From Escherichia coli (GTDB lineage Bacteria; Pseudomonadota; Gammaproteobacteria; Enterobacterales; Enterobacteriaceae), in assembly GCF_003334315.1 (NCBI RefSeq), contig NZ_QOWR01000021.1: 64,000 nucleotides of DNA. One strand, 5' to 3'. The stretch's first letter is position 1. Each line of letters starts with the position of its first letter. Of the stretch, positions 42,124-42,216 are shown piece by piece. The position numbers were made by a program, and so were the translations under genes. The notes below the pieces were generated by a model, which was not told the origin of the DNA, did no database searches, and worked only from the letters and a program-made list of their open reading frames with translations.

Positions 42124-42200
42124 AAGTCTCTCGTCTTCTAAGCTTTCGGTGTACCCAAGGGGGGGAAACGGGCGTCATTATAAAGAATCTGATGCGCTGA

Positions 42201-42216
42201 CGAAACCGTTTGCGTG
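42201..42216 (-). promoter_or_regulatory. PurR operator at the purL promoter
   Basis: Minus strand ACGCAAACGGTTTCGT matches the PurR box consensus; a TATAAT hexamer lies about 20 nt downstream on the same strand. Confidence 0.75.

What the first reader, a model, noticed from the sequence alone, without database searches (positions are those of the whole stretch)
42177..42216. PurR operator overlapping the purL promoter
ACGCAAACGGTTTCGT (minus strand) is a near-consensus PurR box, sitting just upstream of a TATAAT hexamer in the purL 5' region. Its position should be checked against the mapped purL transcription start, because the purL operator has been described as unusually placed relative to the start.
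Basis: partly seen in the sequence, partly recalled or inferred. Interest (0 to 1): 0.25.

Follow-up and report, generated by a model that had tools for sequence, protein, structure and literature searches.

The report
Known PurR operator at purL promoter
This is the already published binding site of the purine repressor PurR on the E. coli purL promoter, lying over the promoter's -35 position, so it is real but ordinary textbook biology.

Summary
The window is an E. coli chromosome segment that matches MG1655 apart from one base in the 501 compared. On the minus strand, ACGCAAACGGTTTCGT lies at 42215..42200. Exactly 17 nt separate it from a perfect TATAAT at 42182..42177, which sits 54 nt upstream of the purL ATG (42123). 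The box is the best PurR weight-matrix hit in the 64 kb. It is base-for-base the purL motif inside the PurR ChIP-chip peak of Cho et al. 2011, where binding was seen only with adenine. A published high-throughput 5' end lies 46 nt upstream of purL, at window 42169, and the authors assigned it the -10 'TTTATAAT'. This agrees with the proposed hexamer and puts the operator at about -46..-31, over the -35 position. The box-17 nt-TATAAT layout is kept in all 33 Enterobacterales sequences compared (32 other species plus the window), although the spacer sequence varies. It is also kept in Pasteurellaceae. The most likely mechanism is that corepressor-bound PurR blocks RNA polymerase from the -35 region. 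purL and purEK do carry the most upstream boxes among the pur operons. Verdict: already known, low interest.

The parts
42200..42215 (-). 16-bp PurR operator (pur box) ACGCAAACGGTTTCGT. It is a near-palindrome, so the strand is nominal. It spans about -46..-31 from the transcription start.
   Evidence: Top weight-matrix hit of the window. Identical to the purL motif 2,693,642-2,693,657 in Cho 2011 Table 1, inside ChIP peak 2,693,490-2,693,714, which is window 42048-42272. 15 of 16 positions are invariant in 33 Enterobacterales sequences.
42200..42205 (-). Hexamer at the -35 position (TTTCGT, 17-bp spacing to the -10). It matches TTGACA at only 2 of 6 positions and is the promoter-proximal part of the operator.
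   Evidence: The sigma-70 scan, which requires at least 4 of 6 in each hexamer, did not list this promoter. Assigning it as the -35 is inference from the spacing.
42177..42182 (-). -10 hexamer TATAAT, a perfect consensus.
   Evidence: Named as the -10 of the mapped purL 5' end in Mendoza-Vargas 2009. TATAAT in 31 of the 33 Enterobacterales sequences and TATACT in the other two, always 17 nt from the box.
42169..42169 (-). Transcription start (G), with an uncertainty of about 1 nt. This gives a 46-nt 5' UTR.
   Evidence: Mendoza-Vargas 2009 supplementary table: purL, -46 from the gene start, 454 sequencing, one read. It lies 8 nt after the last T of the -10.
42170..42176 (-). GC-rich discriminator GACGCCC between the -10 and the start.
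   Evidence: Conserved as (G/A)(A/C/G)CGCCC in most Enterobacterales. Its function is inferred.
42124..42169 (-). purL 5' UTR, beginning GUUUCCCCCCC. It is unstructured.
   Evidence: Fold z-score +1.98, meaning 199 of 200 shuffles fold at least as well. No Rfam match at E<=1.
42218..42226 (-). A/T tract ATTTTATTT directly upstream of the operator, at about -57..-49. It is a possible UP-element-like sequence.
   Evidence: GATTTTATTTC is conserved in the Enterobacteriaceae-like genera (L002-L010, L013, L015, L024, L032) and replaced by other A/T-rich sequence in more distant genera. Its function is inferred.
38236..42123 (-). purL coding sequence (FGAM synthase, 1295 aa), the regulated gene.
   Evidence: and annotation.

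Best explanation
This is the operator of the E. coli purine repressor PurR (LacI/GalR family) in the purL promoter.

When hypoxanthine or guanine is bound, the PurR dimer binds the 16-bp near-palindrome at 42200-42215. The site spans about -46..-31 of a sigma-70 promoter. That promoter has a perfect -10 (TATAAT, 42182..42177), and its -35 position lies inside the operator. Bound PurR therefore blocks RNA polymerase (sigma region 4, and probably the alpha C-terminal domain on the adjacent A/T tract). This lowers purL transcription initiation when purines are plentiful.

Shown, here or in the papers read:
- the sequence and its spacing;
- identity with the published in vivo PurR-bound motif;
- adenine-dependent occupancy;
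- PurR-dependent repression of the purine pathway genes;
- a mapped 5' end consistent with the -10;
- deep conservation of the layout.

Inferred: that repression works by steric exclusion at the -35 rather than at a later step, and that the A/T tract acts as an UP element.
For: - Coordinates and sequence.
- The window is collinear with MG1655. One base differs in the 501 compared, at 42233, outside the box and promoter.
- Cho 2011 Table 1 lists a purL ChIP-chip peak (log2 1.88 with adenine, none without) and the motif ACGAAACCGTTTGCGT at 2,693,642-657. This equals window 42200-42215. The same offset also places the glyA motif correctly.
- Binding at purL was seen only with adenine. Purine pathway genes were repressed in the wild type but not in the purR deletion strain.
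- The leave-out weight matrix ranks this site first in 64 kb.
- A 5' end at -46 was paired by its authors with the -10 TTTATAAT.
- The 61-bp core is 100% identical in 5392 of 5426 complete E. coli genomes.
- Box, then 17 nt of variable sequence, then TATAAT (TATACT in two) is conserved in 33 Enterobacterales sequences. Pasteurellaceae keep it with a 16-17 nt spacer.
- The 5' UTR has no stable structure and no Rfam match, so there is no sign of a riboswitch or attenuator.
Against: - The transcription start rests on a single 454 read, from a method whose authors report 5' ends up to several nt off.
- Another genome-wide data set, Kim 2012, lists no purL start at all.
- I could not read the original papers with footprints and purL-lacZ data (He et al. 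1990, Meng et al. 1990, Sampei and Mizobuchi 1989). Direct in vitro binding and the classical start site are therefore known to me only through citations.
- The steric-exclusion step has not been shown specifically for purL in anything I read.
Confidence: 0.95

Rival explanations
1. The same PurR site also, or mainly, controls a divergent promoter pointing towards mltF. A plus-strand promoter-like site, CTGACG-18 nt-TAAAAT (42197-42226), has the PurR box in its spacer.
For: The promoter scan lists this plus-strand site. Its TAAAAT lies in the A/T tract conserved in Enterobacteriaceae. mltF starts 166 nt away, at 42381.
Against: The match is only 9 of 12, with 2 such sites found in the region against about 0.8 expected by chance. 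The CTG part of the -35-like hexamer lies in the variable spacer and is not conserved. Cho 2011 assigns the peak to purL only and never mentions mltF or yfhD. No mltF start-site data could be retrieved.
Confidence: 0.07
2. The TATAAT at 42182..42177 is not the working -10, and purL is transcribed from another promoter. The box would then sit at a different position relative to the start.
For: The start rests on one read. There is no -35 match. Kim 2012 found no purL start.
Against: No other minus-strand promoter-like site was found in 41900-42600. A consensus or near-consensus -10 is kept at a fixed 17-nt distance from the box across Enterobacterales and at 16-17 nt in Pasteurellaceae, while the spacer sequence drifts. 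The mapped 5' end lies 8 nt after it.
Confidence: 0.03
3. The box is a chance match, or it is chiefly bound by another LacI-family regulator rather than PurR.
For: LacI-family operators resemble each other. GalR/GalS sites were hard to separate from PurR sites in an energy model.
Against: PurR ChIP-chip shows adenine-dependent enrichment at exactly this site. It is the top weight-matrix score in the window. 15 of 16 positions are invariant across 33 Enterobacterales sequences.
Confidence: 0.01

Closest known systems
The purL operator of the E. coli pur regulon (He et al. 1990; Meng et al. 1990; ChIP-chip in Cho et al. 2011, PMC3159470)
   Same: It is the same site, with identical 16-bp sequence and identical genome position.
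   Different: Nothing differs in the site. The window strain has one SNP, at 42233, 18 nt upstream of the box relative to MG1655.
purEK operator
   Same: Same layout by sequence: the box ends 16 nt upstream of the best -10-like hexamer, so it lies over the -35 position.
   Different: The -10 is weaker (TATTCT) and the box sequence differs (ACGCAACCGTTTTCCT). The purEK -10 is my sequence-only guess.
purMN and cvpA-purF operators
   Same: Same repressor, same 16-bp motif, and the site overlaps the core promoter. A GC-rich discriminator follows the -10.
   Different: The box ends 7 nt upstream of the -10 (TAGAAT), so it lies in the spacer between -35 and -10. That is one helical turn closer to the start than in purL.
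purB and purR operators (roadblock, or downstream control sites)
   Same: Same repressor and motif.
   Different: These sites lie in the transcribed or coding region and block elongation (Cho 2011 text). The purL site is upstream of the start and acts on initiation. These are the sites the literature I read calls exceptional, not purL.

Membership tests
PurR operator (pur box) of the enterobacterial pur regulon | 16-bp imperfect palindrome close to ACGCAAACGTTTGCGT, with a central CpG and conserved G3, A5, A6, T11, T12 and C14 | tested here: met
   14 of 16 positions match the palindrome. 21.7 bits on the leave-out weight matrix, the top hit of 64 kb. All key positions are present (positions taken).
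PurR operator (pur box) of the enterobacterial pur regulon | Occupied by PurR in vivo or in vitro | tested here: met
   Checked by literature look-up, not by a new experiment. The Cho 2011 ChIP-chip peak 2,693,490-2,693,714 carries this exact motif. The footprint papers cited could not be read.
PurR operator (pur box) of the enterobacterial pur regulon | Binding depends on the corepressor (hypoxanthine or guanine) | tested here: met
   The purL peak appeared only with exogenous adenine, which the authors say raises intracellular hypoxanthine. This is published data and was not re-measured.
PurR operator (pur box) of the enterobacterial pur regulon | Lies in the control region of a purine or nucleotide metabolism gene that PurR represses | tested here: met
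   The box ends 76 nt upstream of the purL ATG. Purine pathway genes were repressed by adenine in the wild type but not in the purR deletion strain. purL-specific fold values were in a supplement that is not held.
PurR operator (pur box) of the enterobacterial pur regulon | Conserved at the orthologous promoter in related species | tested here: met
   Present upstream of purL in all 32 other Enterobacterales species, 5 Pasteurellaceae and 10 Vibrionaceae examined. Absent in Shewanella, Pseudoalteromonas and similar genera.
Sigma-70 promoter | -10 hexamer close to TATAAT, 6-9 nt upstream of a mapped start | tested here: met
   TATAAT at 42182..42177. The 5' end at -46 from the ATG is 42169, 8 nt downstream. 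The start rests on a single read.
Sigma-70 promoter | -35 hexamer close to TTGACA at 16-18 bp spacing | tested here: not met
   TTTCGT, TTCGTC and GTTTCG at 17, 16 and 18 bp each match only 2 of 6. The scan did not list the promoter. The promoter probably relies on its perfect -10 and the upstream A/T tract, which is inference.

The most novel reading that the evidence does not exclude
Besides PurR, the purL promoter may carry a second, PurR-independent control built into the start region. The GC-rich discriminator GACGCCC and the initial transcribed sequence G-UUU(U)-CCCCC are nearly as conserved across Enterobacterales as the -10. Pasteurellaceae have G-A-UUUUU at the same place. This resembles promoters under ppGpp/DksA control (GC-rich discriminator). 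It also resembles promoters with UTP-sensitive or 'productive' reiterative initiation, such as carAB P1 (GTTTGC) and codBA/upp (GATTTTTT); those comparison sequences are recalled from memory. Nothing I ran excludes this, and nothing tests it.
Probability: 0.15. Interest if true: 0.3.

Novelty: already known. Interest (0 to 1): 0.05.

Why it matters
The finding matters little in its own right. It rediscovers one of the founding operators of the E. coli pur regulon. The site has been known since 1990 and was confirmed in vivo by ChIP-chip in 2011.

- The comparison made here adds a small point. The layout with the operator over the -35, spaced 17 bp from the -10, is fixed across Enterobacterales and kept at 16-17 bp in Pasteurellaceae. 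Vibrionaceae place the box 10-12 bp further upstream.
- The conserved start region is a cheap lead for a possible second layer of control.

Tried and rejected
**Literature on the classical purL start site**
- He et al. 1990 (PMC213288), He et al. 1993 (PMC204761), Thomason 2015 (PMC4288677) and Lisser and Margalit 1993 are not held.
- The phrases 'purL promoter' and 'purLp' found nothing useful.

**Supplements searched for a start site**
- The Cappable-seq GTF was cut on storage and had no hits.
- The ROSE supplement had no hits.
- Cho 2011, Conway 2014, the Rend-seq annotation paper and RegulonDB v8 have no supplements held.
- The Shigella M90T start-site tables have no purL entry.
- Kim 2012 Table S1, whose E. 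coli part appears complete in the stored copy, has no purL start.
- Only Mendoza-Vargas 2009 gave a start.

**Ideas rejected**
- The IHF site listed for 'purL|-46' in Mendoza-Vargas (TAACTCATTGATTTTAAT) is not in the purL promoter. It maps to 38080-38097, downstream of the purL stop and 160-177 nt upstream of glmY.
- A riboswitch or attenuator in the purL leader. There is no Rfam match at E<=1, and the leader folds worse than 199 of 200 shuffles.
- The reiterative-initiation paper PMC12709180 does not mention purL or purine genes.

**Limits of the scans**
- The generic sigma-70 scan misses the purL promoter because the -35 is only 2 of 6. That scan cannot be used against the promoter.
- In my Markov-1 control, random 64-kb sequences gave higher typical maxima (mean 15.9 bits) than the window's third-best hit (13.2). 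I did not pursue this.

Full report
**What is in the sequence.** On the minus strand the window reads ...GATTTTATTTCC ACGCAAACGGTTTCGT CAGCGCATCAGATTCTT TATAAT GACGCCC G TTTCCCCCCC... and reaches the ATG of a 1295-aa ORF.
- The 16-mer occupies 42215..42200.
- The TATAAT occupies 42182..42177, with exactly 17 nt between the two.
- The ORF (38236..42123, minus strand) is purL. The divergent plus-strand ORF from 42381 is mltF. Both names follow the annotation of matching E. coli genomes, including MG1655.
- The window is collinear with MG1655: window position + 2,653,420 gives the NC_000913.3 coordinate, and + 2,651,442 gives the older U00096.2 coordinate.
- Over the 501 bases compared it differs from MG1655 at one base, 42233. 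That base lies outside the box and promoter.

**Is it more than chance.**
- The box has two mismatches to the perfect PurR palindrome. At up to three mismatches the only other match in 64 kb is at 32206-32221.
- I built a weight matrix from the PurR motifs in Table 1 of Cho et al. 2011, leaving out purL and glyA. The purL box was the best hit in the window (21.7 bits) and the 32206 site was second (21.4). The third hit reached only 13.2 bits.
- Only three hits as good as the purL box arose in 100 random 64-kb sequences.
- The bases reported to carry PurR specificity (G3, A5, A6, central CpG, T11, T12, C14) are all present.

**Identity with the published site.** Cho et al. 2011 (PMC3159470) list a PurR ChIP-chip region for purL at 2,693,490-2,693,714, with motif ACGAAACCGTTTGCGT at 2,693,642-2,693,657.
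- That motif is exactly the plus-strand sequence at window 42200-42215.
- The same offset places their glyA motif (AGGTAATCGTTTGCGT) on window 32206-32221.
- The purL peak was seen only with exogenous adenine. The authors say adenine raises hypoxanthine, the PurR corepressor.
- They report that purine pathway genes are repressed by adenine in the wild type but not in a purR deletion strain.
- The RegulonDB evidence paper cites He et al. 1990 and Meng et al. 1990 for purL among the classical PurR studies. I could not read those papers.

**The transcription start.** Most sources I tried were not held, or held no purL entry.
- Mendoza-Vargas et al. 2009 (PMC2760140), supplementary table, lists purL with a 5' end at -46 from the gene start. 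It came from 454 sequencing, as one read, and the authors paired it with the sigma-70 -10 box 'attcTTTATAATgacg'.
The start falls on the G at window 42169, or 42170 under a different counting rule.
- The -10 then lies at -13..-8 and the PurR box at -46..-31.
- The evidence is thin. It is one read, from a method whose authors report offsets of up to several nt.

**Independent support from comparison.**
- I fetched the purL upstream region from 80 gammaproteobacterial species.
- In all 32 Enterobacterales, from E. albertii to Photorhabdus, Providencia and Arsenophonus, the box is followed by exactly 17 nt and then TATAAT (TATACT in the two Rosenbergiella species).
- Across the 33 sequences, window included, 15 of 16 box positions are invariant. 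Most of the spacer varies freely.
- Five Pasteurellaceae keep the same layout with a 16-17 nt spacer.
- Ten Vibrionaceae have the box 24-29 nt (26-29 in nine of the ten) before TATAAT. A conserved GTTACA-like -35 lies between them, so their box sits just upstream of the -35.
- Shewanella, Pseudoalteromonas and similar genera have no box.
- Within E. coli, the 61-bp core 42165-42225 is 100% identical in 5392 of 5426 complete genomes.

**How it most likely works.**
- The hexamer at the -35 position (TTTCGT, 17-bp spacing) matches TTGACA at only 2 of 6 positions. This is why the generic promoter scan did not list the promoter. The hexamer is part of the operator.
- The promoter seems to rely on its perfect -10, and perhaps on the A/T tract at about -57..-49.
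- A PurR dimer on -46..-31 would occupy the surface needed by sigma region 4 and the alpha C-terminal domain. The best-supported mechanism is therefore competition with RNA polymerase binding. This last step is inference.
- The 46-nt leader shows no structure (z = +1.98) and no Rfam match. Nothing points to a riboswitch or attenuator.

**The 'unusually placed' remark.**
- I found no text describing purL this way. Cho et al. say PurR sites generally lie between -35 and -10, and they single out purB and purR as sites that block elongation.
- I compared MG1655 pur promoters by sequence. The best -10-like hexamer begins 0 nt (purHD), 1 nt (purT), 7 nt (cvpA-purF, purMN), 16 nt (purEK) and 17 nt (purL) after the box. 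In purC the box follows the -10.
- Only the purMN -10 has outside support. The others are sequence-only guesses.
- purL, with purEK, has the most upstream box among these operons, but the box still overlaps the core promoter.

**Rivals.**
- A plus-strand promoter-like site (CTGACG-18 nt-TAAAAT, 42197-42226) encloses the box and points to mltF. It is a weak match, part of it lies in unconserved spacer, and Cho et al. do not mention mltF.
- A different purL promoter, or a different LacI-family binder, is very unlikely given the conservation and the ChIP data.

**Verdict.** The site is already known, so interest is low.

Noticed in passing
window 32206-32221: A second strong PurR box (minus strand AGGTAATCGTTTGCGT, 21.4 bits) lies in the glyA-hmp intergenic region. 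It ends 118 nt upstream of the glyA ATG (32087). It is identical to the glyA motif in Cho 2011 Table 1.
   Followed up: partly
window 34056-34071: A weaker PurR-like site (minus strand ATGCAAACGATTTCAA, 13.2 bits) overlaps the last codons of glrR, 67 nt upstream of the glnB ATG (33988). It is probably the glnB operator of He, Choi and Zalkin 1993, which I could not read. Cho 2011 did not detect PurR at glnB in vivo, which fits the low score.
   Followed up: partly
window 42156-42176 (minus strand): The GC-rich discriminator GACGCCC and the initial transcribed sequence G-TTT-CCCCCCC are conserved across Enterobacterales almost as well as the -10. Pasteurellaceae have G-A-TTTTT at the same place. 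The other pur promoters also have GCGCC-like discriminators. This could mean stringent control or reiterative initiation. It is not explained by RNA structure.
   Followed up: partly
window 42197-42226 (plus strand) and 42216-42227 (minus strand): The conserved tract GATTTTATTTCC just upstream of the operator could be an UP-like element for purL. Read on the plus strand, it could be the TAAAAT -10 of a divergent promoter-like site towards mltF, with the PurR box in its spacer.
   Followed up: partly
L037, L038, L044, L051, L058, L061, L062, L063, L069, L073 (about 140-300 nt upstream of purL): In Vibrionaceae the purL PurR box lies 24-29 nt upstream of TATAAT (26-29 in nine of the ten), with a conserved GTGTTACATCAC (a GTTACA-like -35) between them. 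The operator is thus shifted about one helical turn upstream compared with Enterobacterales and Pasteurellaceae.
   Followed up: partly
window 37773-37920 (minus strand) and 38080-38097: The sRNA gene glmY (Rfam RF00128, 146 bits) lies just downstream of purL. The IHF-like site TAACTCATTGATTTTAAT, which Mendoza-Vargas 2009 list under purL, actually lies 160-177 nt upstream of glmY. This fits what I recall of the IHF/GlrR-dependent glmY promoter.
   Followed up: partly
window 42233: This is the only difference from MG1655 in the 501 bp around the promoter (window T, MG1655 C). It lies 18 nt upstream of the PurR box, so the window comes from a close relative of K-12 and not from MG1655 itself.
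   Followed up: yes
L083 (MG1655 purM upstream): The published purM 5' end (-40 from the GTG) falls 11 nt after the TAGAAT -10, inside a T-run (AATTTTATTTTT). Either the mapping is a few nt off or there is slippage at the start.
   Followed up: no
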